Source: a bacterium BMS3Abin01
GTDB lineage: Bacteria > Actinomycetota > Thermoleophilia > BMS3ABIN01
Direction: 5' to 3'
Length of the DNA stretch: 64,000 nucleotides
NCBI GenBank assembly: GCA_002897715.1
Contig: BDUA01000039.1
Coordinates: 244-64,243, forward strand
The notes below the pieces were generated by a model. It had not been told where the DNA came from. It saw nothing but the letters and a program-made list of their open reading frames with translations, and ran no database searches. The position numbers were made by a program, and so were the translations under genes. Shown piece after piece: positions 1,125 through 52,303 of this stretch. Position 1 is the first letter of the stretch, and each line of letters starts with the position of its first letter.

Positions 1125-2612
1125 TTATTCGCTGGAGACGGCGCCGCGAACCCCCCGCAGCAACCACCAGTCGATGGGTAGCCCCCAGTACTGCCGCCGG
1201 CACCTGGCGGAACTGAGCCCGGTGGCCGCCTTGACATAAGCGGCGCGCAGGCGGCTGCGCGCCGCCCGGCGGCGCACCCATTCGGAGGGATAGCCGTAAA
1301 CCAGGTAGAACTCCCGCTGCTTCATGCGGTTCTGGAAACTCTTGCTCATCCAGGGCAGGCCCCCCTTCACGGTGCTGAACGCTGCCCACTCCTCTAGCGA
1401 GCCGGGGCCTTCAAGCCCCAGTTCCAGGGCACGGTCATACAGAGCGTTGCCCGGCGTGGGCGCGTAGAAGTGCAGCTGCGAATTGTACTCGCCGACGATA
1501 CGCGACACCTGTTCCATCACCTGCCAGGTCTCCTCTATCTCCTGCTCCGACTCGCCCGGGAAACCGACGATGTAGCTGTAGGAGATCTTGACGCCATGCC
1601 GGGTGGCCACCCGCGCCGCCTCCAGGATGTCCCGGGGCTCTATGTCCTTCTGCATGGTATGCAGCTGCGTCTCCGAACCGCTCTCGGCTCCCACCAGGAA
1701 GGCCCAGAGCCCGCTCTGCTTGAGGACGTCGAAGGTGGCGTCCTCGAACTTCCCCAGCTGCGGCGCCCGGGCGTTAGCGGCCCAGCCGAACCGCATTCCC
1801 TTCTCCACCATCTTCTGGGAGATCTCCACCGCGCGGCGTTCGTTGACGAAATAGGTGGAATCGAAATACATTATGCCGTTTACGCCCAGGAAGCTCTCCA
1901 GGAACTCCAGGTCGGCAAGCACCCTGTCAGGGGTATAGGCCTTCCAGCGACGCCCGTAGACCAGAGGCTCGGCGCAGAACTGACAGCGGGACGGGCAGCC
2001 CTGGCTGGAAACATAGTTGATCACGCGCGAACCCACGTGCATGTTGTTCAGGTATCGCCGGGGCTGCTCCAGCTTCTCGTAGGGCAGGCGGGGGAACCGG
2101 TTGATATCCGCCACCTTGCGCCCCGGGTTGGACACGGTCTCGCCTTCACGGGTGAAGGTTATGCCCTCCAGGTCGGAGAAATCCTCGCCCTGGCTCAGCC
2201 GGCCGGCCAGCGCCAGCAACGTCAGCTCCCCCTGGCCCCGCACCACCGCGTCGACGAACCGGTTGCGGCTGGTCTGCTCCGGCAGGATGGAGGGATGGTA
2301 ACCACCCCAGATAATGGGCAGCTTCAAGCCCGCCTGCCTCACGGCTTTCGCCGCCTCCAGCCCGAAATGTATCTGAGGCCCGGTCATGCAGCTGATGCCC
2401 AGCATCAGCGAGCCGCGGCACTCTTCCACCAGGCGCTGGCGCCAGTGCGGTTCCAGGTTGGCGTCCAGCAGCACCACATCGTACCCTTCGGCGAACAGGG
2501 GCGCGGACACCGCCATTATGGGTAGCGGCGCCCAGGTCCAGGGGTGATAGACCTTGTCGAAATGGTTCCTGGGATAAAGCAGGGTGATTTTCTTTCTGTT
2601 ATTCCTGGTCAT
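1125..2612 (-). CDS. Cobalamin-binding (class B) radical SAM enzyme
   Basis: N-terminal B12-binding-like Rossmann region (ITLLYPRNHF...VVLLDAN...IIWGGYHPS). CxxxCxxC motif 'CPSRCQFC' preceded by 'SSQG'. Domain order is typical of B12-rSAM methyltransferases. Confidence 0.8.
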   Translation of the reverse strand: MTRNNRKKITLLYPRNHFDKVYHPWTWAPLPIMAVSAPLFAEGYDVVLLDANLEPHWRQRLVEECRGSLMLGISCMTGPQIHFGLEAAKAVRQAGLKLPIIWGGYHPSILPEQTSRNRFVDAVVRGQGELTLLALAGRLSQGEDFSDLEGITFTREGETVSNPGRKVADINRFPRLPYEKLEQPRRYLNNMHVGSRVINYVSSQGCPSRCQFCAEPLVYGRRWKAYTPDRVLADLEFLESFLGVNGIMYFDSTYFVNERRAVEISQKMVEKGMRFGWAANARAPQLGKFEDATFDVLKQSGLWAFLVGAESGSETQLHTMQKDIEPRDILEAARVATRHGVKISYSYIVGFPGESEQEIEETWQVMEQVSRIVGEYNSQLHFYAPTPGNALYDRALELGLEGPGSLEEWAAFSTVKGGLPWMSKSFQNRMKQREFYLVYGYPSEWVRRRAARSRLRAAYVKAATGLSSARCRRQYWGLPIDWWLLRGVRGAVSSE

Positions 2613-8390: not shown

Positions 8391-9180
8391 AGGTCTTTGT
8401 CCGTTCGGCGGCCGTGGCCGGCAACCGTCCCTTCAGGAACCGGTTGAAACGACGCTTGACCCTGATCGTCCCCACCAGCATCTTCACGCTCTCTTTCCAG
8501 ACATCGGTCTCGCCGCTGGTAGTATCATGACGCCAGGGCAATCCCACCTCCACAACCCTGTACCCACATGCGTTTGCCTGGGCGACCAGCTCCGTCAACA
8601 GCTCGAAACCATCGGACCGCAGGTCGACATCCGCCAGAATCTTCCGGTAAAAGGCCATAAAACCTGTCTGGGTATCGGTAATGTCGAGGTGAAACAACAG
8701 GCGTGTCAGCAGAGTGTAGCCGCGGCTGAATATCCGGCGCTTCAACGGATAGTCGGCCCGGATACCGGCATACCTCGACCCCACGGCCATGTCGGCTCCC
8801 TCCAGTGATTCTAGCAGTTCCGGCAGAGTCCTCTCCGGCGGCATCGCCATGTCGGCGTCCATCTGAAAGATTATCTCTCCCGCGGCGATCCCGTACATCT
8901 GCCGGTATGTGAACCCCGCCCCCCGGTTGGGGTAGTGGCTGGCCACCTTTACCGCCGCATCCTCCCCGGCCAATCTCCTTAACGACTCCAGGGTGCCGTC
9001 GGTGCTGCCGTCATCGCCGAAAATGATCTCGTAGGTCACCGGCAGCGCCCGACAGGCCTCCTTGAGCTTCTCGTAACTGCTCCTGATGATCGTTGCTTCG
9101 TTAAAGCAGGGAACCAGCACGCTTATCCGTGGTCCCTCACCTGCTTCGGCCCGGGGATGATCCGGTTCGACGGCGTTCAC
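8365..9180 (-). CDS. GT2 glycosyltransferase, polyprenyl-phosphate sugar synthase (Dpm1/ArnC)-like
   Basis: 'ISVLVPCFNEA', 'DDGSTDGT' and a DxD region. ~270 aa soluble GT-A fold. GTG start overlaps the TGA stop of the upstream radical SAM gene (GTGA). Confidence 0.75.
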   Translation of the reverse strand: MNAVEPDHPRAEAGEGPRISVLVPCFNEATIIRSSYEKLKEACRALPVTYEIIFGDDGSTDGTLESLRRLAGEDAAVKVASHYPNRGAGFTYRQMYGIAAGEIIFQMDADMAMPPERTLPELLESLEGADMAVGSRYAGIRADYPLKRRIFSRGYTLLTRLLFHLDITDTQTGFMAFYRKILADVDLRSDGFELLTELVAQANACGYRVVEVGLPWRHDTTSGETDVWKESVKMLVGTIRVKRRFNRFLKGRLPATAAERTKTYDRKADHD

Positions 9181-10619
9181 AGAAGATCCTTCCGGTGATT
9201 ATCGCGGCGGGAGGCCACCACGTACCGCAGGAACTCCCTGGAAGCCCTGATGCTCTCACCGGGATGGCGGGTCAGACTCCCTATCTTCCTGGCGATATAG
9301 GCGGGGTTTAAATAATAGCGGCGGTAGAACTCCGCCTCCCGGCCGGTGCCGGCCTGATTCCTGAATTCACAGGTATAGGGCTTCAGGGAAAAGACGATGT
9401 TGTCCTTCTCCCGCTCGAACAGCTCCGTATTGGGGTAGGGAACCAGAGTGGAGACGGCGATGAATTCCAGTTTCAGCTTCTTTGCCAGGGCGATGCTCTG
9501 CTCGAAATCCGCCCGCTCCTCCACCGGGGACCCCACGATGAACCAGCCGACCATCTCCAGGCCGCTCTGCCGTACTTCCCTGAGGTTGTCCATTACCGCA
9601 TCCAGCCGGTAACCACGCTTGAGGTAATCGATCACTTTCTGTGAGCCGCTCTCGATGCCCACATAGATGCGGCGGCAGCCCGCATCCCGCAGTGCCGCGG
9701 CCACCTCCCCGTCAATGGTATTGGGACGGGTGAGACAGCTCCAGGTTATCTCGCTGGAGAGGTCACGCAGCCCGGCGCATATCTGCAGCGCTCTCTCCCG
9801 GGAGGCGGTAAAGGTATCGTCCATGAAACGGAAGTACCTGATGCCGGAGCCCTCCACCGCCGACCTCACCTCACTGACCACATGTTCTGCGGAAGCCTTG
9901 ACGAACTTGCGGCCGTAGGTCCTGACACAATACACGCAGGGGAACGGGCATCCCCTCGAAGACTGGAAGGTGGTATAGGGGTGGCCGAAAAACGGCTCGC
10001 CGTAGCGGGAATGGTCGATGGCGGCCTGGTCGGCGAACGGCAGTTCGTCCAGAGATTCGATCCGCTGATAATCGGCGGGGATGAACTGCCCGTCATCTTT
10101 CATGGCAGCCACACCGTCACCTTCCAGCGGTTGATTGTTCATCAGCCTCTGGAGAGCCTTGCGGAAGGAGTTGTCCGGCTCGCCGACCAGCACAAAATCG
10201 GTTTCCGTCGCCCTCAGGCATTCGTGGCTGAAACTGCTGGGAAGGTGGCCGAAGGTGCCCACCATCGCTCCCGGTAACTCCTTTTTCAGTCTTGCCATGA
10301 ATTCCACGTCATTATCGAAGAATTCGATCGCCATAATGGCGACGACCATATCGGGATCGTATCTTCCGGCCTGCTCCAGTGCTTCTTCCGCTGACAAGGC
10401 CTCGGCGATGCAGTCCATCAGACGCACCTGGCAACCACCCTCCGCCCTGGCCTGCGCCGACAGATACATCAGTTCCATGGGGGGGAACAGAAAGTTTGGC
10501 GCGTTGTATGAGCAGACATAACGCCGGATAATCTGGGACCGGTAAGGGGGATTGATAAGAAGTACTTTCAAATCACACCGTCCGGGTAAGTAAATATGCT
10601 GTGTATGGTAGTATAGCAA
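9177..10619 (-). CDS. Cobalamin-binding (class B) radical SAM enzyme
   Basis: 'LKVLLINPPY' B12-binding-like N-terminus. 'SSRGCPFPCVYC' radical SAM motif. Confidence 0.8.
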   Translation of the reverse strand: MLYYHTQHIYLPGRCDLKVLLINPPYRSQIIRRYVCSYNAPNFLFPPMELMYLSAQARAEGGCQVRLMDCIAEALSAEEALEQAGRYDPDMVVAIMAIEFFDNDVEFMARLKKELPGAMVGTFGHLPSSFSHECLRATETDFVLVGEPDNSFRKALQRLMNNQPLEGDGVAAMKDDGQFIPADYQRIESLDELPFADQAAIDHSRYGEPFFGHPYTTFQSSRGCPFPCVYCVRTYGRKFVKASAEHVVSEVRSAVEGSGIRYFRFMDDTFTASRERALQICAGLRDLSSEITWSCLTRPNTIDGEVAAALRDAGCRRIYVGIESGSQKVIDYLKRGYRLDAVMDNLREVRQSGLEMVGWFIVGSPVEERADFEQSIALAKKLKLEFIAVSTLVPYPNTELFEREKDNIVFSLKPYTCEFRNQAGTGREAEFYRRYYLNPAYIARKIGSLTRHPGESIRASREFLRYVVASRRDNHRKDLL

Positions 10620-11450: not shown

Positions 11451-12866
11451 TCAGGCCCAATGAAGGAAATCCTTCGCCATGCGCGCCAGGGCGCCGATGT
11501 CCCCGGTGGACTTTATCTTTCCCAGCGTTTTCATGACCACATGCGGCTGGCGATAGAAGCTCAGATAAGCCCGGTCCCTGGCGGCCATGACCTGTTCAGT
11601 GCTCAGTGAGGGCGTAGAAAGGATAGAGGTGTTCTGCTCGAAGTATTTCCAGTCCGTCTCACCGAGCCATCCGTTCTCGATGCTCTGTTCGTAAAGTTCG
11701 GAGCCGGGGAAGGCGACGGCGCAATAGAACTGCGCATAGTCCAGCCTGAGGAACCTGGCGAGATCTATCGTCATTTGCAGCGATTCCTCTGTTTCACCGG
11801 GCAGGCCCAGGATGCAGTGACCGGTTACTTCCAGCCCCACCTCATGGGCCATCCTCACGGCGGTGACCACATCGGTGATAGTGGTTTTCTTTTTTACCGC
11901 GTCCAGTATCTCCTGGCTGCCGCTCTCGATGCCGAACCCGATCATCCAGCAGCCGGCTTCCTTGATGGTCCTTAAAAACTCGGGGGATACCGTATCCACC
12001 CGGCTGTTACATACCCAGCTGACGTCCAGGTTGCGATCGATCATCTCCCGGGCGGTGGCTATCGCGTAATCCTGGTCATTGGTGAAGGACTCCGCCCAGA
12101 ACAGGAAATCCCGAATACCGAAGCTGTCCCTGATCCAGGATATCTCGTCCACGATCCTGGCGGGAGACCGTTTGCGTACCCTGGCCCCGTAATAAGCCTT
12201 GCTGGCGCAGAAGGTGCAGGCGTAGGGACAGCCGCGGGCGCTGGCGACCAGCAGGTACCGCTTGCCGGTGAAGGGCAGCCGGTAGCGGCCGGTGTCCACC
12301 AGGTCCCAGGCCGGGAACGGCAGCTCGTCCAGATCCTCGATGAACGGCCGCCTCTCATTATGGTGGACGATACCGTCCCGGCGATAGGAGAGCCCCGGGA
12401 TACCTTCCAGAGACCTGTCCTCGCTTATGGCCGCGGCCGCGTCCCGTATGGAGTATTCCGGTTCGCCGCGAACGATGATGTCCAGCCGGTCGTTGATGGC
12501 AAAACATTCATCCGGCAGGGTGCTGGGATGTATGCCCATGACCAGCGTCCGGCAGGCGGGAGCGGCGTCCTTTACCAGCGCCGCCACGGCGATATCCTGA
12601 TCGATGGAGGTGGTAGCCGTGTTTATCACCACCAGCGACGGCTGCCAGTCCCTGACCTCCCGGCTGACATCCTCGCCGCTGATATCCTCGACGCTGCCGT
12701 CGCGTATCCTGACTTCGAACCCCTCGTCCCTCAGCACGGCGGCGACGGTCGCCAGGGACACCGGCGACCATACGGTCGTCCAGGCGTCGGTCCTCTGCAT
12801 GCAACGCCCCTCCCTGATGACGTTCACCCCCTGCTCCGGCGGCGGGTTCAGTAACAGCACTCTCAT
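11451..12866 (-). CDS. Cobalamin-binding (class B) radical SAM enzyme
   Basis: 'MRVLLLNPPP' B12-binding-like N-terminus. 'SARGCPYACTFC' motif. Confidence 0.8.
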   Translation of the reverse strand: MRVLLLNPPPEQGVNVIREGRCMQRTDAWTTVWSPVSLATVAAVLRDEGFEVRIRDGSVEDISGEDVSREVRDWQPSLVVINTATTSIDQDIAVAALVKDAAPACRTLVMGIHPSTLPDECFAINDRLDIIVRGEPEYSIRDAAAAISEDRSLEGIPGLSYRRDGIVHHNERRPFIEDLDELPFPAWDLVDTGRYRLPFTGKRYLLVASARGCPYACTFCASKAYYGARVRKRSPARIVDEISWIRDSFGIRDFLFWAESFTNDQDYAIATAREMIDRNLDVSWVCNSRVDTVSPEFLRTIKEAGCWMIGFGIESGSQEILDAVKKKTTITDVVTAVRMAHEVGLEVTGHCILGLPGETEESLQMTIDLARFLRLDYAQFYCAVAFPGSELYEQSIENGWLGETDWKYFEQNTSILSTPSLSTEQVMAARDRAYLSFYRQPHVVMKTLGKIKSTGDIGALARMAKDFLHWA

Positions 12867-12901: not shown

Positions 12902-14281
12902 TCAATTGCTGTAGGAGATCAGGGCCTTCAGTATCTCTTTTACCTGGCCGGGCCGCGTATTGCGGAGCAGATGCCACATCTGATGGGGGCGTCCGTAGAA
13001 TCTCAGAACCGACCGGCGCTGCCAGCGATTCAGCTGCCTGGCATCAAGATCCCCCATCGGGAACGGCGTGAAATAGTTGAAAGCCCTGTAATCTATGCTT
13101 CCATCCCGGGAACGGTCCAGTACCTGCTCCTGAAAGATGGCCGATCCGGGCAGGGGAGCCAGCAGGCCGAAATTGGCCCGGTCGAAAGGAACCTTCAGGG
13201 CAAAGGATACGGTCTCCTTGATGGTATCCACCGTCTCTCCCGGCAGGCCGATGATGAAGAAGCCGTTGGTCTCGATGCCGTGACCTTTGACCATCTCCAC
13301 CTTGCCGGCCACTTTTTCCAGGTTCAGCCTCTTGTGGTTGATGTCCAGCACCTTCTGGCTGCCGGATTCGATGCCGAACCCCAGGGCGTAACAACCGGAG
13401 CGCCGCATCAGGTCCAGCAGTTCATCGTCCAGCGAATCGATGCGCACGCCGTTGGGTGTGCTCCAGACGATATCCAGCCCGCGCCGCAGCATCTCTTCAC
13501 AGATGGCGGCCGCATGGCTGCGCTTCAGGGTGAAATTATCATCCTCGAAATGTATCTCCTGCACCTGGTAATCCTTAACCAGCATCTCAATCTCATCCAC
13601 CACGTTCTCCGGCGACCGCGTCCGCCATCTCTTCCCCCAAAGGGTGGTAGAGGCGCAGAAAGTACAGTCAAAGGGGCAGCCGCGGCTGGTCATGACCGAA
13701 CCCACGGGAAACTTCCGGGAAAGCAGCTGGTGCGGCAGGTCCGGATATGTGCGGGGGTCCATCAGCTCCCATGCCGGAAAGGGCAGGGAATCCAGGTCTT
13801 CGATGAATGGCGAGCGCCGGCTGCAGCTGACCTCATCACCGACCAGCCGGCAGACACTCGCCAGCTCACCGTCAGGGCTGCGGCCGGCCGCCAGCGCATC
13901 GACTACCCGGGGGAACACCAGCTCCGCCTCGCCGATGATCCCCAGCGGCACCCCCAGGTTCTTCAGAGCGTCATCGGGGACCGCCGTGACATGGGGACCG
14001 CCGATCACCAGCGGTACGGACGGCAATTTCTGCTTGATGGCGGCAATCAGCTCCTGGGCGGGAAGATAGGCGGTGCTGAGGATGCTGATACCTATGAGGT
14101 CGGGCTTCAGCAGGGCAAGCTCCCTGACCCCGCTCTCGGCGCCCAGCCGCCGCCTGGCGAGATCCAGCAGCGCCACCTCGTGGCCTCTTTGCTGGACACA
14201 GGCCGCCAGATAACCCAGCCCCAGGGGTGGGGTTACAGTGTGGGCGCTTGAGTTGGGAGCAACCAGGACTACTTTCATCAC
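12902..14281 (-). CDS. Cobalamin-binding (class B) radical SAM enzyme
   Basis: 'MKVVLVAPNSS...IGGPHVT' B12-binding-like N-terminus. 'TSRGCPFDCTFC' motif. Confidence 0.8.
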   Translation of the reverse strand: MMKVVLVAPNSSAHTVTPPLGLGYLAACVQQRGHEVALLDLARRRLGAESGVRELALLKPDLIGISILSTAYLPAQELIAAIKQKLPSVPLVIGGPHVTAVPDDALKNLGVPLGIIGEAELVFPRVVDALAAGRSPDGELASVCRLVGDEVSCSRRSPFIEDLDSLPFPAWELMDPRTYPDLPHQLLSRKFPVGSVMTSRGCPFDCTFCASTTLWGKRWRTRSPENVVDEIEMLVKDYQVQEIHFEDDNFTLKRSHAAAICEEMLRRGLDIVWSTPNGVRIDSLDDELLDLMRRSGCYALGFGIESGSQKVLDINHKRLNLEKVAGKVEMVKGHGIETNGFFIIGLPGETVDTIKETVSFALKVPFDRANFGLLAPLPGSAIFQEQVLDRSRDGSIDYRAFNYFTPFPMGDLDARQLNRWQRRSVLRFYGRPHQMWHLLRNTRPGQVKEILKALISYSN

Positions 14282-38104: not shown

Positions 38105-39400
38105 TCAGTCCTGCTGGCTTACCTGGTACAGCTTGCGGTAGATAGTGCTGTTGCGGGTGAAGACATATGAGCGGTAGAAGCTCTTCATGTAAACCAACGA
38201 TCGTATGCCCCGCTTGACGATGGCCGGGATGGAGTAGACCTTCTCGCAGGCCCAGTTGTAGCCCTGCTGCAGCTCCGCGGCCGTCATCTTCTTGGGGATG
38301 AAAGTGACATTGCCCACGTCGTATTTCTCCCAGTGCGAATGGATGATCCTCCCCCGGGATTCCAGTTCGGACCGGATGGCCGTTCCCGGATAAGGTGTCA
38401 GCACGGTCAACTGCGGACAATCGATGTTGTTGCGCTTGATAAATTTCACCGTTTTCTTGAACACCGACTTGTCGTCGCCGTCGAAACCGAACACGAAGCA
38501 GCCGATAAGCCCGATCTTGTAGGAATGAAAGACCTTGATCTTGTCCTCATATTCGGCGACGCGGTTGGAGGCCTTCTTGCCCATGCCCTCGATGTTCTCG
38601 TCCGAAAGGGACTCAAAACCCACCAGCATGCCGGCGCAACCGCTCCTTTGCGCCAGATCCATCAGCTCCGGGTCGTCGGCCATATCGATAGACCCCTGGC
38701 TCAGCCAGTGGATACCCAGCGGCTCCAGCGCCCGGAACAGCCTTTTGGCGTACTTCTTGTTGGCGGTAATGTTGTTATCGGTGAAGAAGACAAAGCGGTG
38801 CTGGGCGTCACGCACCTCCTTCACTACTTCCTCCACCGGACGAAAGCGCATGCGCGGCCCGTAAAAGACAGTGGTGGAACAGAAGGAACAGCGGTAGGGG
38901 CACCCCCGCGATGTCTCCACCTTGGGGATGTTGAGGTAGGCATCCTCCTTCATCAGGTCGCGCCGGGGCATCGGCAGTCCCACCAGGTCCGGCTTGACCT
39001 CCGCCAGGTAACGCGATTGCATACCGCCGTCCTCCAGGTCGGCCAGCAGCTGCGGCCAGCTGTCCTCGGACTCGCCCACGACCACGGCATCGGCGTGCGC
39101 GGCGGCCTCCTCGGCCATCAGCGACGGATGCACGCCACCGAGCACCACCTTCTTGCCGCGGCGGCGGAACTCGTCGGCGATCTCGTAAGCCCGCGGCGCC
39201 GTCGGCGTCAGTGCCGTAATGGATATCAGATCCGCGTCCACGTTGAAGTCCAGAGGCTCCACATTCTCGTCGATCACGCTCACCTGGTGCTTCGACGGGG
39301 TCAGCGCCGCCATCAGCGGCAGCGTTAACTGACTCATATAGATACGTCCGCGGGTCTTAACATTGGACTTATGATAAGGTTGGATTATTAGGATTTTCAT
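38105..39400 (-). CDS. Cobalamin-binding (class B) radical SAM enzyme
   Basis: 'MKILIIQPYH' start at 39400, with GGGAG 6 nt upstream. 'TSRGCPYRCSFC' motif. Confidence 0.8.
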   Translation of the reverse strand: MKILIIQPYHKSNVKTRGRIYMSQLTLPLMAALTPSKHQVSVIDENVEPLDFNVDADLISITALTPTAPRAYEIADEFRRRGKKVVLGGVHPSLMAEEAAAHADAVVVGESEDSWPQLLADLEDGGMQSRYLAEVKPDLVGLPMPRRDLMKEDAYLNIPKVETSRGCPYRCSFCSTTVFYGPRMRFRPVEEVVKEVRDAQHRFVFFTDNNITANKKYAKRLFRALEPLGIHWLSQGSIDMADDPELMDLAQRSGCAGMLVGFESLSDENIEGMGKKASNRVAEYEDKIKVFHSYKIGLIGCFVFGFDGDDKSVFKKTVKFIKRNNIDCPQLTVLTPYPGTAIRSELESRGRIIHSHWEKYDVGNVTFIPKKMTAAELQQGYNWACEKVYSIPAIVKRGIRSLVYMKSFYRSYVFTRNSTIYRKLYQVSQQD

Positions 39401-39519
39401 GGCAGACTCCCGATATTGACCTCTATGAACTCTAGCAACAAGACGGAACGCAAACAAGGAGCGCCGCTACCTATGGTTCCAGCCCCCGGGGTGACCGGCC
39501 CCAAACCGATAAGACAGAG

Positions 39520-42009: not shown

Positions 42010-42085
<76 letters not shown>

Positions 42086-42100
42086 GATACCTGCCTGTCC

Positions 42101-43420
42101 CTACTTAACTTTTCCCGTGAACATGGGGATGCCCACACGCTTGCGGGCGGTCTCTCCCCTGAACAGATCCCCCTTGCGCGCCGGCGCGTCGCCGCGCTCT
42201 CCCAGGTGCTGCCCGAACCTGTGGGCGGCGAAACTGGAGCCCAGGAAAAGCGTATGCTTGCCGTACTTGAGACGCACCCCATCCACCGCCGCGTAGACCC
42301 GCCCCACCTTCTCTATCTGCGCCGTCATCCCGAACAGGTCCGGCTGGAGGATGACATCATCCTCCAGCTTGAACAGCACCACCCCCGTGGAGCGGTAGAG
42401 CTTCCCCGGGTTGAACAGCCGCTCGAAGGCCGGCTCCAGGGCGGCCAGCACCTGGTGGGGAAAGGCGGTGGGACGCGAGAAGCGGACCTCGGCGCCCGCA
42501 CCGCGAAAGTCCCGGGTCTTCAGGAAACATACGGCCCGGCCCGCCGCCAGATGATAGCGCCGCGCCTTCATGGTGGCGTTCTCCACGTTCTTGGAAAGCT
42601 GGGCGAAGACGAACTCCCGGTCTCCCGACGGCGGCGTGAAGGTCTTCATCTTCCGGATGGAGCCGTAGGTCTCTTTTTCCTCCGTCTCCAGGCCGATGAC
42701 AGCCTCACCGTTGAGCTCCCGCCAGGTTTCCTGAAAGGGTTTGCTGAACCGTTCCTTCACCCACACCTCGTCCTTGAGGGCGAACTGCAGCGCCGTGCTT
42801 ACCCCCTGCTTGCCCAGGAAGGCGGTGGTCTGGGGTCCTATCCCCCATACCCTGTCCACCGGCAACCGCTCCAGGTAGCGGGCGATGTCCCGGCCGGGGA
42901 CCGCCGTCAGCCCCGACGGCTTCTTCCACTTGGAGGCTATCTTGGCGATGGTCTTGTTGGGGGCCAGCCCCACGGAGAAGGTGAAGCCGAAACAGCGTTC
43001 CAACTCCTCCTTCATGGCCCGGGCGATACCCGGATAGCCCATACGCAACGGCCGGCGCATGCCGGTGATGTCGGCGAAACACTCGTCGATGCCGTATTCC
43101 TCCACCTCCGGCGTGTACTTGCGCACGATGCTGAAAAAACGCCGGGAGAGCAGGCTGTAGGTCTCGTAGTCCGAGGGCAGGAACACCGCGTCGGGACACA
43201 GGCGCCTCACCTCGGAGAGGCGCATGGCACGCTCCACGCCGCGGGCCTTGGCCTCATAGCTCATGGACGCCACGATATTGCGCTCCTTGCCGGTAATGAC
43301 CGGCCGCCCCTTGAGTTCCGGGTTGCGCGACTGCTCCACGGCGGCGAAAAAGGCGTCAGCGTCGATATGGATGATGGCTCGCGGATAGGAGCCGATGGCG
43401 ATTACCCTGTCGTTTCCCAC
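42101..43420 (-). CDS. Y-family (DinB/UmuC-like) translesion DNA polymerase, second gene of the lexA operon
   Basis: 'AIIHIDADAFFAAVE' and 'YGIDECFADITG' catalytic D/D/E motifs. Extended C-terminus (~440 aa total). Start tentatively at GTG 43418-43420, because the track ATG at 43591 lies 135 nt inside lexA. Confidence 0.7.
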   Translation of the reverse strand: MGNDRVIAIGSYPRAIIHIDADAFFAAVEQSRNPELKGRPVITGKERNIVASMSYEAKARGVERAMRLSEVRRLCPDAVFLPSDYETYSLLSRRFFSIVRKYTPEVEEYGIDECFADITGMRRPLRMGYPGIARAMKEELERCFGFTFSVGLAPNKTIAKIASKWKKPSGLTAVPGRDIARYLERLPVDRVWGIGPQTTAFLGKQGVSTALQFALKDEVWVKERFSKPFQETWRELNGEAVIGLETEEKETYGSIRKMKTFTPPSGDREFVFAQLSKNVENATMKARRYHLAAGRAVCFLKTRDFRGAGAEVRFSRPTAFPHQVLAALEPAFERLFNPGKLYRSTGVVLFKLEDDVILQPDLFGMTAQIEKVGRVYAAVDGVRLKYGKHTLFLGSSFAAHRFGQHLGERGDAPARKGDLFRGETARKRVGIPMFTGKVK

Positions 43421-43455
43421 GATAAACCGGTTTCGTCGGGACCACCGGAGCGGTC

Positions 43456-44025
43456 TCAGTATTTCCGGATCACCGCCTTCACTACCGCCGCCGCCCTGAG
43501 CTCCTTCTCCGGGTAGATCGGCTTGTACCTGCGATTGGCGGCCTCCAGATACACCTTGCCGCCCCGCTGGCGAAAATACTTCATGGTCCACTCGCCGTCC
43601 ACCTCGGCGATGATGATGTCACCGTCCTTCTCCCGCACGCCCCGCTCCACCAGGACCATGTCCCCCGGCATGATGCCGGCATCGATCATGGAATCTCCCT
43701 GCACCTTGAGCATGAAGGTGGCCCCCGGTCGTTCCACCAGGAACTCGTCCAGGGTCATGGTGTCCAGCAGCTCCTCCTCCGCCGGTGAAGGCCAGCCGGC
43801 GCTCACCGCTCCCAGCAGGGTGACACTGTGGAAGCGCCTGCCCGGCAACAGCCGGCCGGTCTCGTCCCGCTCCACCAGCCCCAGCTCCACCAGGCGGTTC
43901 ACCAGCTTGTGAGTACTGCCCTTGGAACTGAGCCCCGCCGCCCTGGCTATCTCGCTATGGCTGGGCATGCGCCGGTGGGCACGGTAGAAATCCCTTATCT
44001 TGTCGAAATGTCTGGGCGTCTCCAT
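43456..44025 (-). CDS. lexA: LexA transcriptional repressor (SOS regulator)
   Basis: wHTH N-terminus 'MPSHSEIARAAGLSSKGSTHKLVNRLVELGL'. S24 peptidase 'VQGDSMIDAGIMPGDMVLVER' Ser/Lys dyad region. Start set at 'METPRHFDKIRDF' (ATG 44023-44025) rather than the track TTG at 44064. Confidence 0.85.
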   Translation of the reverse strand: METPRHFDKIRDFYRAHRRMPSHSEIARAAGLSSKGSTHKLVNRLVELGLVERDETGRLLPGRRFHSVTLLGAVSAGWPSPAEEELLDTMTLDEFLVERPGATFMLKVQGDSMIDAGIMPGDMVLVERGVREKDGDIIIAEVDGEWTMKYFRQRGGKVYLEAANRRYKPIYPEKELRAAAVVKAVIRKY

Positions 44026-44066
44026 GACAGGAACAGTATAGGCGTACGTTCGTACGCCTGTCAAGA
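44026..44066 (-). promoter_or_regulatory. lexA promoter with SOS-box-like 8-2-8 palindrome in the spacer
   Basis: Minus strand reads TTGACA-GGCGTACGAACGTACGCC-TATACT, with the ATG 9 nt downstream. Perfect inverted repeat GGCGTACG-AA-CGTACGCC between a consensus -35 and a near-consensus -10. Confidence 0.65.
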
Positions 44067-44106
44067 AGATGCCTCCGGGCGGAGGGAAACCGTGGACAGC
44101 GGCCTA

Positions 44107-45681
44107 TCAACCGCCGGGGTATGGAGCCGGGATCAGGTATGTCTCACCGCTGCCGGCCATGGCGGTGGCGAAGAGCGTGGAGCGGAACGAATCTACTCCC
44201 TGGGGAATCCTGTATTTGAGGGTGAAGGAGCTTCCCTGGCTGCCGGGGTCAACGATCCCCGTCGCCAGCGGCAGTGGCGTCGTCATAGCCGCGCCACCGC
44301 TCTCTATGGAGCCGACGATAGTGAGCTCCTGGATGAAAACTTCCTGGCTGGTGATCCTGTAATCAACCGACAACTCCCCCGACTGGTAATCCGCATAGGA
44401 TGACCAGTATATATTTGTTGCGGCGATACCAAAGTTATTGTCTATCACTACTCCGATCTCCGCAGTACCGGCATTGCCGGCGGCATCGTATGCAACCGCC
44501 CTCAGGACGTGGGGGCCGCTGGCAAAACCCCCGGTCGCCAGGTCAAAGTCATAAGGCGCGGCGGTTCTGACGCCCGCCAGGTTATCGCCGACATAGAGCT
44601 CCACCCTGGAGACCGCATCATTGTCCGAGGCGGCTGTGACAACGGTCACCGTATCCGACAGGCTGGCTCCCGGGAGCGGCGAGTCGATGGAAACGGTCGG
44701 CGCGGTGACATCCGGAGCCTTGGCGGCGTTACGGAAGGCCTCGAGGCTCCCCGGAGAGCTATTGACTCGCCAGTCAGTTTCCTTGTTGGTATCGAACCAG
44801 ACCAGGCTCTCGATCCTGGGGAACCTGACCGGAAGGCTGGCAAACGTGTCGGTTATCCAGCCGGGTTTGCTGCCACCCAGCTCGGCTGACGCGGTCTCGC
44901 ACACCATGACCGGTTTGCCGCTACGCGCGGTGAACTCATCGTAGCTGGGTCCGAAGATGGCAGCGAAATCCCGCCATACAGAGGTCCATTCCGGCGTGTT
45001 TTGCGTCGTGCCCCAGTTGTATCCGTCCAGGCCCAGATAATCGATATAGGCATCACCGGGATAATATGTGCTGAAGGTACCGGCGGCGCCCGCAGCGTCG
45101 CTATTGGCATTCGGTGACCAGACGAACTCCACGTTCGCGGCGCCCTCCTGGACGAAGATGTCGTGAATATGACGCCAGGCCGGGATGAAGTCCGAAGGCT
45201 GGTTGCCGTTGGCCGTGCCCGACCAGACGGTCCAGTCACCATTCATCTCGGGCATCGGCCGGAAACGGACCGGATAGCCGAAGTCTCTCAGTTGACGCGC
45301 CCAACGGTGGATGTCGCCGTCGAAGTTGCCGCTGGTTATATTCCGCAGCTGATAGTCGGGCTGGTTGATCAGGTCGGCGGCGCCGGGGTCCCATGGCTCC
45401 CAGGTCACCATTATGATCTTTCCCTGCTGGGAGATAGAACGTAAAGCGCCCGCGTTGAAGTCGTCACCAATAGCGTAGAAAGAATGAAAGATGTCGACGG
45501 CGCGACCGGTATCGTTCTCGAAGCTCCCCAGGTCTCCCGGATTCTCAAGGAATACCCCCAGCTTGAAGCCCGGAGCGGTAGCAGCATCAGCGCTGTCGTT
45601 ACTTACCATTAACACGCCCGCGAGAAGCAGCGGCAGAAAAGCGATTGTGATTAAAGATCGGAGCGAACTCATTGAAGTCAA
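44107..45681 (-). CDS. Secreted glycoside hydrolase family 26 (beta-mannanase-like) with C-terminal Ig-like domains
   Basis: Signal peptide. 'VRFRPMPEMNGDW' (GH26 acid/base region) and 'VMVCETAS' (nucleophile region). C-terminal beta-rich repeats. Confidence 0.7.
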   Translation of the reverse strand: MTSMSSLRSLITIAFLPLLLAGVLMVSNDSADAATAPGFKLGVFLENPGDLGSFENDTGRAVDIFHSFYAIGDDFNAGALRSISQQGKIIMVTWEPWDPGAADLINQPDYQLRNITSGNFDGDIHRWARQLRDFGYPVRFRPMPEMNGDWTVWSGTANGNQPSDFIPAWRHIHDIFVQEGAANVEFVWSPNANSDAAGAAGTFSTYYPGDAYIDYLGLDGYNWGTTQNTPEWTSVWRDFAAIFGPSYDEFTARSGKPVMVCETASAELGGSKPGWITDTFASLPVRFPRIESLVWFDTNKETDWRVNSSPGSLEAFRNAAKAPDVTAPTVSIDSPLPGASLSDTVTVVTAASDNDAVSRVELYVGDNLAGVRTAAPYDFDLATGGFASGPHVLRAVAYDAAGNAGTAEIGVVIDNNFGIAATNIYWSSYADYQSGELSVDYRITSQEVFIQELTIVGSIESGGAAMTTPLPLATGIVDPGSQGSSFTLKYRIPQGVDSFRSTLFATAMAGSGETYLIPAPYPGG

Positions 45682-46135
45682 GTCTCCTGGTCGGCAGCCA
45701 AGCTGTCATAGCCCCGGTGGACCTTAGACCTTTGGCTTTGCGCCGCCCCGTTTCCGGGGTTTTGCCTTTTTCACAGGGGCCCGGCTTCTCCCAATACCCA
45801 AACCCGTGTCTGTAAGCTATATCGGAAATGATCTTGAGAATATTAACCGCACAGACATCGACGGTTTGAGCGGTTATAGCCCCGTTTTTCGGAAACGGCG
45901 GCACGGTGGAAGCGGCATCCGGCCGGATAGGCGGCAATCAGGTGAGTTCCGTATTGAAATAATCGTACATTTATGAGACTATTACTTTGTTTTGGGGCAC
46001 TGTTGCACTTATTGAAGGCGGGAAAAGCGGGGGCATGGCTGGCCTGAGCGGAGCCTGGGCCGTAAGATGTTGGCCGGGATTAAGCAGGTTTATAGTCCCG
46101 CCGGAAATGTAGATCAGCTATAGAGAATTAAAAAA

Positions 46136-50949: not shown

Positions 50950-51235
50950 GACAAACCGGGGTTTTCCAGTAAACCCCTCCCAGTGCCGGACCGGTGGGAG
51001 AGTCGCAAGTTTAAATAACCCCCATCCGTGGGATAAAAAATAAGGATCCTTTTCCCCGGCGGCACATCACGGTACCTGTTTTCCCCATCATGGCCGATAA
51101 CAATTGGGATCGGTAATGTCTGCATGGGAAGCAGTCAAGGCTTGACTGTGCTAAAATAGCCGCTTGGCATTTTCCGGTAACGGGCAAAAAAAGGAAAAGG
51201 CAATACCGAATAGAAAGATAGAGCAAGTGACAACG

Positions 51236-52303
51236 ATGACTGAACTTCCTATTGAATTGACTCAAAACCTGATAACACAGGGGCACGAGAAAGGGTTTCT
51301 CACCCTGGACGACATCGCCGACGCTCTGCAGGAAGCAGATCTGTCTACAGAGCAGATAGAGGATGTCTACTCGCGCATCGCCGATGACGGCATCGATATC
51401 ATCGAAAGCCCTGACGGTGGCGATGCCGGCAAGGAGCCCGCGGAGGCGGTCAAGGAAACCCCGGCCGACCGGCCGACGGCCACTGATGACTCCCTGCGCA
51501 TGTATCTCAGGGACATCGGCCGTATCCCCCTTCTTTCGGCCGCCCAGGAAGTATCGCTGGCCAAACGTATGGAACGCGGCGACATGGAGGCTAAAAGCCG
51601 GCTGGTGGAAGCCAACCTGCGCCTCGTCGTCAGCATAGCCAAGCGCTATCTCGGGCGGGGGCTCTCATTCCTCGATCTGATTCAGGAAGGAAACCTCGGC
51701 CTCATCCGCGCTGTGGAGAAGTTCGATTACCGTCGTGGCTATAAATTCTCAACTTACGCCACCTGGTGGATACGCCAGGCGGTGACCCGCGCCATCGCCG
51801 ACCAGGCGCGCACCATCCGCATCCCGGTCCATATGGTGGAGAAGCTGAACCATCTGGTCAGGGCCAAGCGCCAGCTGATTCAGGACCTGGGACGGGAACC
51901 GACGCCCGAGGAGATCGCCAAGGTGATGGACACGTCACTGGACAAGGTCCAGCACCTGATCAAGATCTCCCAGAGCCCGGTGAGCCTGGAAAAGCCGGTC
52001 GGCGACGAAGAGGAGGCGGAACTGGGAGATTTCCTGGAGGACGAAGGCACCCCCAAGCCCATGGAAGCCGCTGTCTCGGAGATAAAGAAGGATGACCTCA
52101 ACAAGGTCCTGGAATCGCTGCCTCACCGCGAGCGCAAGATCCTGGAGCTTCGTTACGGGCTCAACGGCGAGCACCCCCGCACCCTGGAACAGATCGGGCG
52201 CAGGTTCGGTGTCACCCGTGAGCGGATCCGTCAGATAGAGGCCAACACCCTCTCGCGTCTGAAGGAACTGCAGGAGACGCAGCACCTGCGCGAGAGCGCC
52301 TGA
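51236..52303 (+). CDS. rpoD: Primary RNA polymerase sigma-70 factor
   Basis: Region 1.1 '[12 protein letters not shown]', region 2 '[59 protein letters not shown]', and regions 3 and 4. Start at ATG 51236; the track TTG at 51164 is probably artefactual. Confidence 0.9.

What the first reader, a model, noticed from the sequence alone, without database searches (positions are those of the whole stretch)
44020..44070. lexA promoter with a perfect 8-2-8 palindrome exactly filling the -35/-10 spacer; near-leaderless lexA followed by a Y-family polymerase
On the coding strand the sequence reads TTGACA | GGCGTACG AA CGTACGCC | TATACT, then 9 nt, then ATG. That is a textbook operator-within-promoter arrangement. 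The half-site (GTAC-N4-GTAC core) is unlike the E. coli CTGT-N8-ACAG box. It is closer to the cyanobacterial and some Gram-positive 'GTAC/GAAC' types, which gives a direct handle on this organism's SOS box. The operon continues into a DinB/UmuC-like polymerase with intact catalytic D/D/E and an unusually long C-terminus. The polymerase's annotated ATG overlaps lexA by 135 nt, so the real start is probably a downstream GTG.
Basis: seen in the sequence. Interest (0 to 1): 0.6.

Follow-up and report, generated by a model that had tools for sequence, protein, structure and literature searches.

The report
Self-repressed lexA–polymerase operon, GTAC-type operator
The palindrome is very probably the binding site through which the LexA repressor shuts off its own two-gene operon (lexA plus an error-prone DNA polymerase); this is a well-known kind of DNA-damage switch, here with a one-base variant of the usual site.

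Summary
On the minus strand: TTGACA (44064-44059), GGCGTACG-AA-CGTACGCC (44058-44041), TATACT (40040-series: 44040-44035), 9 nt, then ATG (44025). Alone, neither palindrome nor promoter match beats chance. The case rests on comparison. In ten relatives (76-90% LexA identity) only the -35, the operator arms and the -10 are invariant. The same operator-in-spacer layout recurs in 83 of 123 family loci from many phyla, mostly as GAAC-N4-GTTC. Start codons lie within 10 nt of the -10 in 63 of those 83. The half-site variant tracks LexA residue 36, which aligns with the base-contacting Asn41 of E. coli LexA. The polymerase starts at GTG 43420 (439 aa). Its long C-terminus is a conserved UmuC-style extension. 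GTAC-type LexA boxes, leaderless lexA and lexA-polymerase operons all have published precedents, so this is a new member of a known kind. Whether the site is the organism's genome-wide SOS box could not be tested, because the window holds no canonical SOS genes and no second copy. One point merits follow-up: the LexA protease domain resembles UmuD more than LexA, so the cleaved repressor might also serve the polymerase.

The parts
44072..44085 (-). Terminator-like hairpin (CCTCCGCCCGGAGG) after the upstream GH26 gene, just 5' of the -35. It probably insulates the lexA promoter from read-through.
   Evidence: terminator scan; the hairpin appears in the MFE fold. Relatives also have hairpins plus T-runs at this place. 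The T-run here is weak.
44059..44064 (-). -35 hexamer TTGACA
   Evidence: Invariant TTGAC in 10 relatives. TTGnnn found in 83 family promoters.
44041..44058 (.). 18-bp perfect palindrome GGCGTACG-AA-CGTACGCC, the inferred LexA operator. Its core is CGTAC-N4-GTACG, and it fills the 18-nt spacer.
   Evidence: The arms are invariant and the central dinucleotide varies (AA, AG, CT, GT, TT) in relatives at 76-90% identity. The half-site type covaries with LexA residue 36.
44035..44040 (-). -10 hexamer TATACT
   Evidence: TATA.T is invariant in relatives.
44026..44034 (-). 9 nt between the -10 and the ATG, with no Shine-Dalgarno sequence. The transcription start is inferred about 6-8 nt after the -10 (around 44029-44027), which gives a 5' UTR of about 1-4 nt.
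   Evidence: The closest relatives have 9-10 nt, and the family mode is 6 nt. The transcription start itself is inferred, not mapped.
43456..44025 (-). lexA, 189 aa: a winged-helix DNA-binding domain plus an S24 self-cleaving protease domain.
   Evidence: TIGR00498 scores 122.6 bits against a cutoff of 110.95. Peptidase_S24 scores 97 bits. Full-length LexA structures are the top fold matches. Homologue lengths and N-termini agree.
43891..43926 (-). Codons for residues 34-45 (SKGSTHKLVNRL), the recognition helix. Gly36 occupies the position of E. coli LexA Asn41.
   Evidence: Ungapped alignment to E. coli LexA with an offset of +5. Helix 35-47 in the model. DNA-contacting residues of E. coli LexA as listed in PMC3091678. 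Covariation with the half-site.
43795..43800 (-). Codons for Ala76-Gly77, the predicted self-cleavage site. It is followed by WPSPAEEE, a UmuD-type motif.
   Evidence: Invariant in the family. Aligns with E. coli LexA Ala84-Gly85 and with the first residue of UmuD'. Ser112 and Lys149 align with Ser119 and Lys156.
43421..43455 (-). 35-nt lexA-pol intergenic spacer
   Evidence: A homologous 35-nt spacer is present in L161. Other relatives have 1-104 nt.
42101..43420 (-). Y-family DNA polymerase, 439 aa from GTG 43420. The core is DinB-like, with catalytic D20/D22 and D112-E113.
   Evidence: IMS and IMS_C domains. All NCBIfam Pol IV and UmuC models fall below their cutoffs. Start codon. Catalytic residues aligned to Dpo4. 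Nearest solved structure is 7yll Pol IV.
42233..42298 (-). Polymerase residues 375-396 (VYAAVDGVRLKYGKHTLFLGSS), a RecA-N-terminus-like motif corresponding to the N-terminal part of DUF4113.
   Evidence: DUF4113 is the only Pfam hit in 7 of 8 family tails, always at this position, but below the gathering score (13.9 bits in the window, best 23.8). Motif definition from PMC6511836.
42104..42208 (-). Polymerase residues 405-439, a family-specific conserved C-terminal tail (H.GERGD.P.R...L..GET.R.RL.IPMF...).
   Evidence: Alignment of 44 family polymerases. In UmuC, the equivalent extreme C-terminus is the main UmuD'-binding site (PMC6511836). A function for the tail here is inferred only.

Best explanation
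The 18-bp palindrome is the operator for the LexA dimer encoded immediately downstream. It fills the spacer of a sigma-70-type promoter, so bound LexA blocks RNA polymerase and keeps a two-gene operon (lexA plus a Y-family translesion polymerase) at a low level. After DNA damage, RecA filaments stimulate LexA to cut itself between Ala76 and Gly77 using the Ser112/Lys149 dyad. The DNA-binding domain then falls off, and a nearly leaderless lexA-pol mRNA is made. New LexA resets the switch.

Shown here: the sequence anatomy; conservation of the architecture; covariation between the half-site and the recognition helix; the identity of both proteins; and the polymerase start.

Inferred: actual LexA binding, the transcription start, co-transcription, and RecA dependence. 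Whether the same box also controls recA, uvrA and other SOS genes elsewhere in the genome is unknown.
For: (1) Anatomy.
(2) Footprint. In 10 relatives at 76-90% LexA identity, the invariant columns are confined to TTGAC, the two CGTAC(G) arms and TATA.T. Sequence 5' of the -35 is unrelated, and the operator's central dinucleotide varies.
(3) Family-wide architecture. 106 of 123 loci have an operator-like site. 83 of them are flanked by TTGnnn and TAnnnT with a 17-18 nt spacer.
(4) Protein-DNA covariation. All 8 GTAC/GTAC operators go with a non-Asn residue at position 36 (Gly in the window clade, Phe in L131, Tyr in L142). None of the 74 Asn36 proteins has one. GGAC half-sites go with Ser36. 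Position 36 aligns with E. coli Asn41, at the start of the recognition helix.
(5) LexA identity. TIGR00498 is above its cutoff. The Ala-Gly site and the Ser/Lys dyad are invariant. Full-length LexA structures, including the LexA-DNA complex 3jso, are the best fold matches.
(6) The polymerase follows within 260 nt in 55 of 89 loci with enough sequence. LexA and polymerase divergence correlate, r = 0.76 over the 70 loci where the polymerase lies within 260 nt.
(7) A group-1 sigma factor is encoded in the window.
(8) Precedents. B. subtilis uses CGAAC-N4-GTTCG and cyanobacteria use RGTACNNNDGTWCB, for example CGTACGTCTGTACT before recA (PMC3091678). M. tuberculosis lexA is leaderless (PMC2897130). 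Geobacter has a damage-induced lexA-imuB-C-polY operon (PMC6511836).
Against: There is no experimental binding or transcript data.

The palindrome and the promoter match are each within chance expectation for this window.

The covariation rests on only 3-4 independent lineages, and non-Asn residues also occur with GAAC. The Fisher p of 3.5e-5 is not corrected for phylogeny.

The N-terminal domain matches LexA models only weakly by sequence: Pfam LexA_DNA_bind scores 18.8 against a gathering score of 23.7, and TIGR00498 on the N-terminal domain alone scores 18 bits.

Leader length is not fixed in the clade: 19 nt in L081-L085 and 56 nt in L001.

No second operator copy was found in the 64-kb window or in 767 kb of family loci, where 2 hits compare with 3.4 expected. 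A wider regulon therefore has no support so far.
Confidence: 0.85

Rival explanations
1. Same operator, but the protein is more than a repressor. The cassette would be a self-contained Pol V-like module. RecA-stimulated cleavage would both derepress the operon and release a UmuD'-like C-terminal fragment starting at Gly77-WPSPA. That fragment would bind the conserved C-terminal tail of the co-transcribed polymerase and activate or manage it. On this view LexA may be a local regulator rather than the global SOS repressor.
For: The C-terminal domain alone matches UmuD'/UmuD best (73 bits, against 53-64 for all LexA C-terminal domains), and the alignment starts exactly at the post-cleavage Gly. 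The UmuD model NF007621 scores 107 bits against 100.8 for the lexA model on that domain. The model superposes on UmuD/UmuD' at 1.7-1.8 A. The G[FW]PSPA motif is kept in nearly all members at 50% identity or more, whereas canonical LexAs have AG[ST]P[IL]LAEE. UmuD-UmuC-like pairs are the next-closest hits, at 43-47%. The polymerase has a RecA-NT-like motif plus a conserved tail, the arrangement in which UmuC binds UmuD' (PMC6511836). No other accessory gene is conserved in the cassette. No extra operators occur nearby. [quoted passage not shown] Acinetobacter UmuDAb is a precedent for a UmuD-type protein acting as a repressor (PMC11332147).
Against: The UmuD preference is modest: 73 against 64 bits for M. 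tuberculosis LexA, and it is below the UmuD cutoff of 110. The conserved region after the cleavage site may simply serve the cleavage reaction. The polymerase core is DinB-like, not UmuC-like: the Pol IV model scores 205 bits and the UmuC model 150, both below their cutoffs. The DUF4113 hits are sub-threshold. The tail could instead bind the beta clamp or RecA. There is no interaction evidence of any kind.
Confidence: 0.2
2. The palindrome acts as a nucleic-acid hairpin, for example a terminator or attenuator of the upstream GH26 transcript, and not as a protein operator.
For: It lies 49 nt after the GH26 stop on the same strand and can form a 7-8 bp stem in the RNA fold.
Against: No U-tract follows it. 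A separate terminator-like hairpin sits just upstream. The fold z-score is -1.87, unremarkable. Across the wider family the palindrome always travels with the -35 and -10 hexamers and with lexA. The arms show no compensatory changes and are simply invariant within clades. The half-site changes track a protein residue.
Confidence: 0.03
3. The site is bound by some other regulator, or is a chance palindrome inside a constitutive promoter.
For: Palindromes of this size are frequent in the window, and binding has not been measured.
Against: The arms are conserved against a diverged background. The same layout recurs in 83 loci across phyla, always in front of this LexA family. It covaries with the LexA recognition helix. 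The core matches the known GAAC/GTAC-N4 class of LexA boxes.
Confidence: 0.04

Closest known systems
Gram-positive / actinobacterial LexA box (Cheo box, CGAAC-N4-GTTCG) with lexA autoregulation
   Same: A palindrome of two 4-5 nt half-sites separated by 4 nt, located in the lexA promoter, giving repression by occlusion. Most relatives of this LexA use exactly GAAC-N4-GTTC (motif from PMC3091678).
   Different: The window and its clade have T instead of A at the second half-site position (GTAC-N4-GTAC). The LexA is short (189 aa), its recognition helix reads SKGSTHKL, and its protease domain is UmuD-like. Canonical actinobacterial LexAs are only 32-39% identical.
Cyanobacterial LexA box RGTACNNNDGTWCB / AGTACWNWTGTACT (Mazon 2004; Li 2010, PMC3091678)
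   Same: GTAC-N4-GT(A/T)C core. Listed sites such as CGTACGTCTGTACT (before recA) differ from the window's CGTACGAACGTACG at few positions.
   Different: The window site violates the R at position 1 and the D at position 9, and it is a perfect 18-bp palindrome. The protein is not a cyanobacterial LexA. This is resemblance by motif only.
Leaderless lexA of Mycobacterium tuberculosis (Smollett 2009, PMC2897130)
   Same: Translation starts at, or next to, the transcription start, with no Shine-Dalgarno sequence.
   Different: It was shown experimentally there and is only inferred from spacing here. In the window the gap is 9 nt rather than the family's typical 6, so a 1-4 nt leader is likely.
Geobacter sulfurreducens lexA-imuB-C-polY operons (Jara 2003; Timinskas and Venclovas 2019, PMC6511836); LexA-DinB neighbourhoods (Aravind 2013, PMC3765255)
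   Same: An autoregulated lexA is co-transcribed with an active Y-family polymerase that carries a C-terminal extension.
   Different: There is no imuB-C gene between lexA and pol here. Where relatives have a gap, the inserts are unrelated genes. I recall the Geobacter box as different, but that is from memory and was not checked.
E. coli umuDC (Pol V) and Acinetobacter UmuDAb
   Same: An S24 self-cleaving protein with the G-F/W-PSPA neo-N-terminus is encoded directly upstream of a Y-family polymerase that has a RecA-NT-like motif and a conserved tail. UmuDAb shows that a UmuD-type protein can be a repressor.
   Different: This protein has a LexA-type winged helix and passes the LexA equivalog model. 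UmuD has no DNA-binding domain. The polymerase core is closer to Pol IV models than to UmuC. No sequence comparison with UmuDAb was possible.

Membership tests
LexA repressor (TIGR00498) | The full-length curated equivalog model scores above its cutoff | tested here: met
   122.6 bits against 110.95. About 100 of those bits come from the C-terminal domain.
LexA repressor (TIGR00498) | N-terminal winged helix-turn-helix of the LexA type | tested here: met
   Sequence similarity is weak: Pfam LexA_DNA_bind scores 18.8 against a gathering score of 23.7. The predicted fold is alpha1-alpha2-alpha3-beta-beta with pLDDT 82-88. Full-length LexA structures 3k2z and 3jso are the top matches over about 195 columns.
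LexA repressor (TIGR00498) | S24 protease with a Ser/Lys dyad and an Ala-Gly cleavage site | tested here: met
   Ala76-Gly77, Ser112 and Lys149 are invariant in the family. They align with E. coli Ala84-Gly85, Ser119 and Lys156.
LexA repressor (TIGR00498) | Binds a palindromic box in its own promoter (autoregulation) | tested here: met
   Met by comparative evidence only: footprint, family architecture and covariation. Physical binding was not tested.
LexA repressor (TIGR00498) | RecA-stimulated self-cleavage after DNA damage | not testable with these tools
   Needs a biochemical assay.
LexA repressor (TIGR00498) | Controls a regulon of DNA-repair genes (recA, uvrA, ruvAB and others) | not testable with these tools
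   The window has no such genes and no second box. The rest of the genome is not available here.
GAAC-N4-GTTC (Cheo-type) LexA box | Inverted 4-nt half-sites separated by 4 nt | tested here: met
   GTAC-GAAC-GTAC inside an 8-2-8 palindrome.
GAAC-N4-GTTC (Cheo-type) LexA box | Half-site sequence GAAC / GTTC | tested here: not met
   The window and 10 close relatives have GTAC on both sides. Across the family, 72 operators are GAAC/GAAC.
Cyanobacterial LexA box RGTACNNNDGTWCB | Match to the 14-nt consensus | tested here: not met
   CGTACGAACGTACG matches GTAC, GTWC and B, but has C at R (position 1) and C at D (position 9). Consensus from PMC3091678. The core is the same, but strictly it is not a member.
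UmuD (Pol V autoproteolytic subunit, NF007621) | Curated model score above its cutoff | tested here: not met
   105-107 bits against 110.
UmuD (Pol V autoproteolytic subunit, NF007621) | Small protein (about 140 aa) without a DNA-binding domain | tested here: not met
   It has a 69-residue winged-helix domain.
UmuD (Pol V autoproteolytic subunit, NF007621) | G-F/W-PSPA motif at the cleavage site, and a Y-family polymerase gene immediately downstream | tested here: met
DNA polymerase IV (DinB) | IMS palm/fingers plus little-finger domains with catalytic Asp/Asp/Glu | tested here: met
   IMS 157 bits and IMS_C 39 bits. D20, D22, D112 and E113 align with Dpo4.
DNA polymerase IV (DinB) | An NCBIfam Pol IV equivalog model above its cutoff | tested here: not met
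   The best is 205.6 bits against 371. All ten models fall below their cutoffs.
UmuC (Pol V catalytic subunit) | Curated UmuC model above its cutoff | tested here: not met
   NF002955 scores 150 bits against 431.
UmuC (Pol V catalytic subunit) | C-terminal extension with a RecA-NT-like motif (DUF4113) followed by a conserved tail | tested here: inconclusive
   DUF4113 hits the same 22 residues in 7 of 8 family tails, but always below the gathering score of 24 (13.9 in the window, best 23.8). The tail is conserved.
Leaderless mRNA | The start codon is at or within a few nt of the transcription start, with no Shine-Dalgarno sequence | tested here: inconclusive
   The spacing (9 nt from the -10), the absence of a Shine-Dalgarno sequence and the family mode of 6 nt all fit. 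The 5' end is not mapped.

The most novel reading that the evidence does not exclude
This widespread LexA family would be a LexA/UmuD hybrid. One RecA-triggered cut both derepresses the lexA-pol operon and produces a UmuD'-like fragment (starting GWPSPA...) that docks on the conserved C-terminal tail of the co-transcribed DinB-like polymerase. The result is a portable, two-gene, self-regulating Pol V analogue. It could also be a living intermediate between lexA and umuDC.
Probability: 0.2. Interest if true: 0.7.

Novelty: new member of a known kind. Interest (0 to 1): 0.3.

Why it matters
For this uncultured bacterium (bacterium BMS3Abin01; nearest named relatives are Thermoleophilia and Actinomycetota MAGs), the site is the first concrete candidate for its LexA box. 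It also corrects two gene starts.

More broadly, the family offers a natural series of operator variants (GAAC, GTAC, GGAC). These are paired with changes at the residue that aligns with E. coli LexA Asn41. That makes a ready-made test bed for how LexA specificity shifts.

The UmuD-like protease domain sits next to a polymerase with a UmuC-style tail. This raises a testable question about whether repressor cleavage also activates the polymerase.

None of this overturns current understanding of the SOS response.

Tried and rejected
- **Extra operator copies.** Scans of the window with 1-3 mismatches found only intragenic weak hits. These include a perfect CGAAC-N4-GTTCG at 10034, inside a radical-SAM ORF. 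Scans of 767 kb of family loci, each with its own operator, gave 2 hits against 3.4 expected.
- **SOS genes in the window.** Pfam on about 36 ORFs found polysaccharide-synthesis genes, B12-radical-SAM enzymes and a sigma factor, but no SOS genes.
- **Integrated island at the tRNA-Lys next to the polymerase.** There is no repeat of the tRNA 3' end, and the closest relatives share the same chromosomal neighbours. Rejected for the immediate clade.
- **An imuB-C gene between lexA and pol, as in Geobacter.** The inserts in relatives are unrelated genes.
- **Terminator or hairpin role.** Rejected.
- **Papers.** Three key papers were not held, so their content is cited only by title or from memory: Sanchez-Alberola 2015, Erill 2016 and Sanchez-Osuna 2017. 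It therefore remains possible that this LexA family has already been described in Patescibacteria.
- **Both large-collection scans went to LexA loci.** No motif-based scan for recA or uvrA promoters was possible.
Full report
**The observation.** On the minus strand the window reads cTTGACA-GGCGTACGAACGTACGCC-TATACT-GTTCCTGTC-ATG. The hexamers are at 44064-44059 and 44040-44035, the perfect 8-2-8 palindrome is at 44058-44041, and the ATG is at 44025. A consensus scan scores the promoter 11 of 12 with an 18-nt spacer.

Taken alone this is not statistically remarkable. The palindrome pattern with up to 3 mismatches occurs once, and 37 of 100 shuffles also give at least one match. Perfect palindromes with 8-nt arms are frequent in this GC-rich window: 21 hits against 7.3 +/- 3.2 simulated. 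One promoter-like site per 5 kb is what shuffles give. The finding has to stand on what surrounds it and on comparison with relatives.

**The genes.** The ORF from ATG 44025 to 43456 encodes a 189-aa protein. It passes NCBI's LexA equivalog model (122.6 bits against 110.95) and has a strong Peptidase_S24 domain. Its N-terminal domain matches LexA models only weakly by sequence. However, an AlphaFold model built on 26 homologues gives the alpha1-alpha2-alpha3-wing topology at pLDDT 82-88. Full-length LexA structures, including the E. coli LexA-DNA complex, are the best fold matches over both domains. Ala76-Gly77, Ser112 and Lys149 are invariant in the family and align with the E. coli cleavage site and catalytic dyad.

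The identical protein is deposited as 'lexA repressor [bacterium BMS3Abin01]' with 202 residues. That annotation starts at the TTG of the -35 hexamer. Homologues of 187-190 aa show that ATG 44025 is the start.

Downstream lies a Y-family polymerase (IMS plus IMS_C). Its longest ORF starts at GTG 43591, not ATG, and overlaps lexA by 136 nt. Relatives start 12-17 residues before the HIDADAFF motif, 1-35 nt after the lexA stop. Independent gene calls in two close relatives give 439 aa. The window's GTG 43420 lines up with their ATG, so the polymerase is 42101-43420. The catalytic Asp/Asp/Glu and the steric-gate Phe align with Dpo4.

**Comparative evidence for an operator.** I collected 165 loci encoding relatives of this LexA from genomes and metagenomes.

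In the five closest (86-90% identity) the gene order is the same as in the window: GH26/Big_7, lexA, polymerase, Na/Ca exchanger. The block TTGAC(A/T)-GGCGTACGA(A/G)CGTACGCC-TATA(C/A)T is kept and is followed by 9-10 nt and the ATG. Sequence 5' of the -35 is unrelated.

Adding the 76-80% clade, the only invariant columns are TTGAC, the two arms and TATA.T. The central dinucleotide takes five different values. This is the signature of a dimeric protein site, not of a hairpin.

Across the whole family, 106 of 123 analysable loci have an operator-like palindrome upstream of lexA. In 83 of them it sits between TTGnnn and TAnnnT hexamers 17-18 nt apart. Most are GAAC-N4-GTTC, the classical Gram-positive box. 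Smaller groups have GTAC (the window clade, L131, L142 and L023) or GGAC (Syntrophales MAGs).

**Protein-DNA covariation.** The second base of the half-site tracks LexA residue 36. Asn36 goes with GAAC (141 of 148 half-sites). All eight GTAC/GTAC operators have Gly, Phe or Tyr there, and none of the 74 Asn36 proteins has such an operator. GGAC goes with Ser36.

Residue 36 aligns without gaps to E. coli LexA Asn41. Asn41 is one of the helix-III residues listed as DNA-contacting in PMC3091678. In the model, residue 36 sits at the start of helix 35-47.

The association (Fisher p = 3.5e-5) is not corrected for shared ancestry and rests on three or four independent lineages. Non-Asn residues also occur with GAAC. 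So this is supporting evidence, not a recognition code. Together with the footprint, it makes LexA by far the most likely ligand.

**Leaderless arrangement.** In 63 of the 83 promoters the first in-frame start codon lies within 10 nt of the -10, with a mode of 6 nt. That puts the usual start site on or next to the A of the ATG. The window has 9 nt and no Shine-Dalgarno sequence, so a 5' UTR of roughly 1-4 nt is expected. The feature is labile: sister clades have 19 nt and 56 nt. M. tuberculosis lexA was shown experimentally to be leaderless (PMC2897130).

**The polymerase and the operon.** A polymerase 40-79% identical to the window's follows lexA within 260 nt in 55 of 89 loci with enough sequence. 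LexA and polymerase identities correlate (r = 0.76, n = 70). Larger gaps hold unrelated inserted genes rather than an imuB-C as in Geobacter.

The 'long C-terminus' is conserved across 44 family members. Its first part is the only region to hit Pfam DUF4113. It does so in 7 of 8 tails, at the same 22 residues, just under the gathering score. According to PMC6511836, that part of DUF4113 is a RecA-N-terminus-like motif found in many Y-family extensions. In UmuC, the conserved extreme C-terminus that follows it is the main UmuD'-binding site.

By sequence the core is closer to Pol IV than to UmuC, but no curated model reaches its cutoff.

**An unexpected feature.** The protease domain of this LexA is more UmuD-like than LexA-like. 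Searched alone, it hits UmuD'/UmuD first (73 bits, against 53-64 for every LexA C-terminal domain). The alignment begins exactly at the post-cleavage glycine, GWPSPAEEE against GFPSPAADY. The UmuD model scores 107 bits and the lexA model 101 on this domain. The G[FW]PSPA motif is kept through nearly the whole family. UmuD-UmuC-like pairs are the next-closest relatives at 43-47%, while canonical LexAs with AG[ST]P[IL]LAEE reach only 32-39%.

This does not change the main reading. It does keep open a second role for the cleaved fragment as a UmuD'-like partner of the polymerase. I rate that at about 0.2.

**What could not be shown.** The window holds no canonical SOS genes. It has no second box outside coding sequence. 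The flanks of all family loci show no excess of extra sites. The title of Jara et al. [quoted passage not shown] A cassette-local role is therefore a live possibility.

**Rivals.** A terminator or hairpin role is unlikely. No U-tract follows, another terminator-like hairpin lies just upstream, and the fold is unremarkable (z = -1.87). Across the wider family the element also travels with the promoter and lexA. A different regulator, or chance, is hard to reconcile with the covariation.

**Comparison with what is known.** All of the following are published: autoregulated lexA with a box in its promoter; GAAC-N4-GTTC boxes; cyanobacterial GTAC-type boxes, for example CGTACGTCTGTACT before recA (PMC3091678); a leaderless lexA (PMC2897130); and lexA-Y-polymerase operons (PMC6511836, PMC3765255). 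The window's site fails the strict Cheo and cyanobacterial consensus at one and two positions respectively. It works like both but is a variant of the same class. I could not read three papers that might already describe this family, in Patescibacteria, Betaproteobacteria and Verrucomicrobia.

**Verdict.** This is a clean example of a known kind of switch in an undescribed lineage. Interest is 0.3. The UmuD-like repressor next to a polymerase with a UmuC-style tail is the one lead worth an experiment.

Noticed in passing
window 45690-45776 (-), upstream of 44107-45681 (-): A c-di-GMP-I riboswitch (Rfam RF01051, 83 bits) sits directly 5' of the GH26 plus Big_7 gene that precedes lexA. That glycoside hydrolase is probably under c-di-GMP control. 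The GH26-lexA adjacency is kept in the closest relatives (L161-L164).
   Followed up: partly
window 42010-42085 (+): A tRNA-Lys(CTT) converges on the polymerase gene. Its 3' end is 15 nt from the polymerase stop codon. No repeat of the tRNA 3' end was found elsewhere in the window, so there is no sign of an integrated element.
   Followed up: yes
window 44026-44064 (-); also L165 824-900: The deposited LexA annotations (P0001 at 202 aa, P0002 at 211 aa) start at TTG codons inside or upstream of the promoter. The -35, operator and -10 are therefore 'translated' as MTGVRTYAYTVPV. Both are start-codon misannotations.
   Followed up: yes
window 1125-2612, 9177-10619, 11451-12866, 12902-14281, 38105-39457 (all -): Five paralogous B12-binding radical-SAM genes lie among glycosyltransferases, a Wzy-like ligase, a flippase, a sugar transferase and LytR. 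This looks like a large cell-envelope polysaccharide locus with unusual methylation or modification chemistry.
   Followed up: no
window 10034-10047: A perfect canonical Cheo-box core, CGAACGGCAGTTCG, lies inside a radical-SAM ORF (9177-10619). It is most likely chance, but a canonical actinobacterial LexA would recognise this sequence if the genome has one.
   Followed up: partly
L023 upstream of lexA (about 1600-1645): This operator has GTAC half-sites separated by 5 rather than 4 nt (GAGTACGA-A-TCGTACTC), in a LexA with Gly36. It is the only spacing variant seen in the family.
   Followed up: no
L119/L120, L129, L023, L004 between lexA and pol: In some relatives unrelated genes are inserted between lexA and the polymerase. 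By eye they look like an antirepressor-like protein, a transposase-like protein and small toxin-like ORFs, but none was run against a family library. The two-gene unit tolerates insertions.
   Followed up: partly
window 43421-43455 (-) and L161 10571-10605: The 35-nt lexA-pol spacer is conserved between the window and L161 and contains an imperfect inverted repeat (GACCGC-TCCG-GTGGTC). No clear Shine-Dalgarno sequence precedes the polymerase GTG. Other relatives have spacers of only 1-18 nt, which suggests translational coupling.
   Followed up: no
window 51164-52303 (+): A group-1 sigma-70 factor with regions 1.1-4. Its orthologue lies in the same neighbourhood in L161. It is relevant as the likely reader of the TTGACA/TATACT promoter.
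   Followed up: partly
whole window: There is an excess of perfect short palindromes (8-nt arms, gap 0-4): 21 against about 7 expected from a first-order Markov model. Most are GC-rich and lie inside genes.
   Followed up: no
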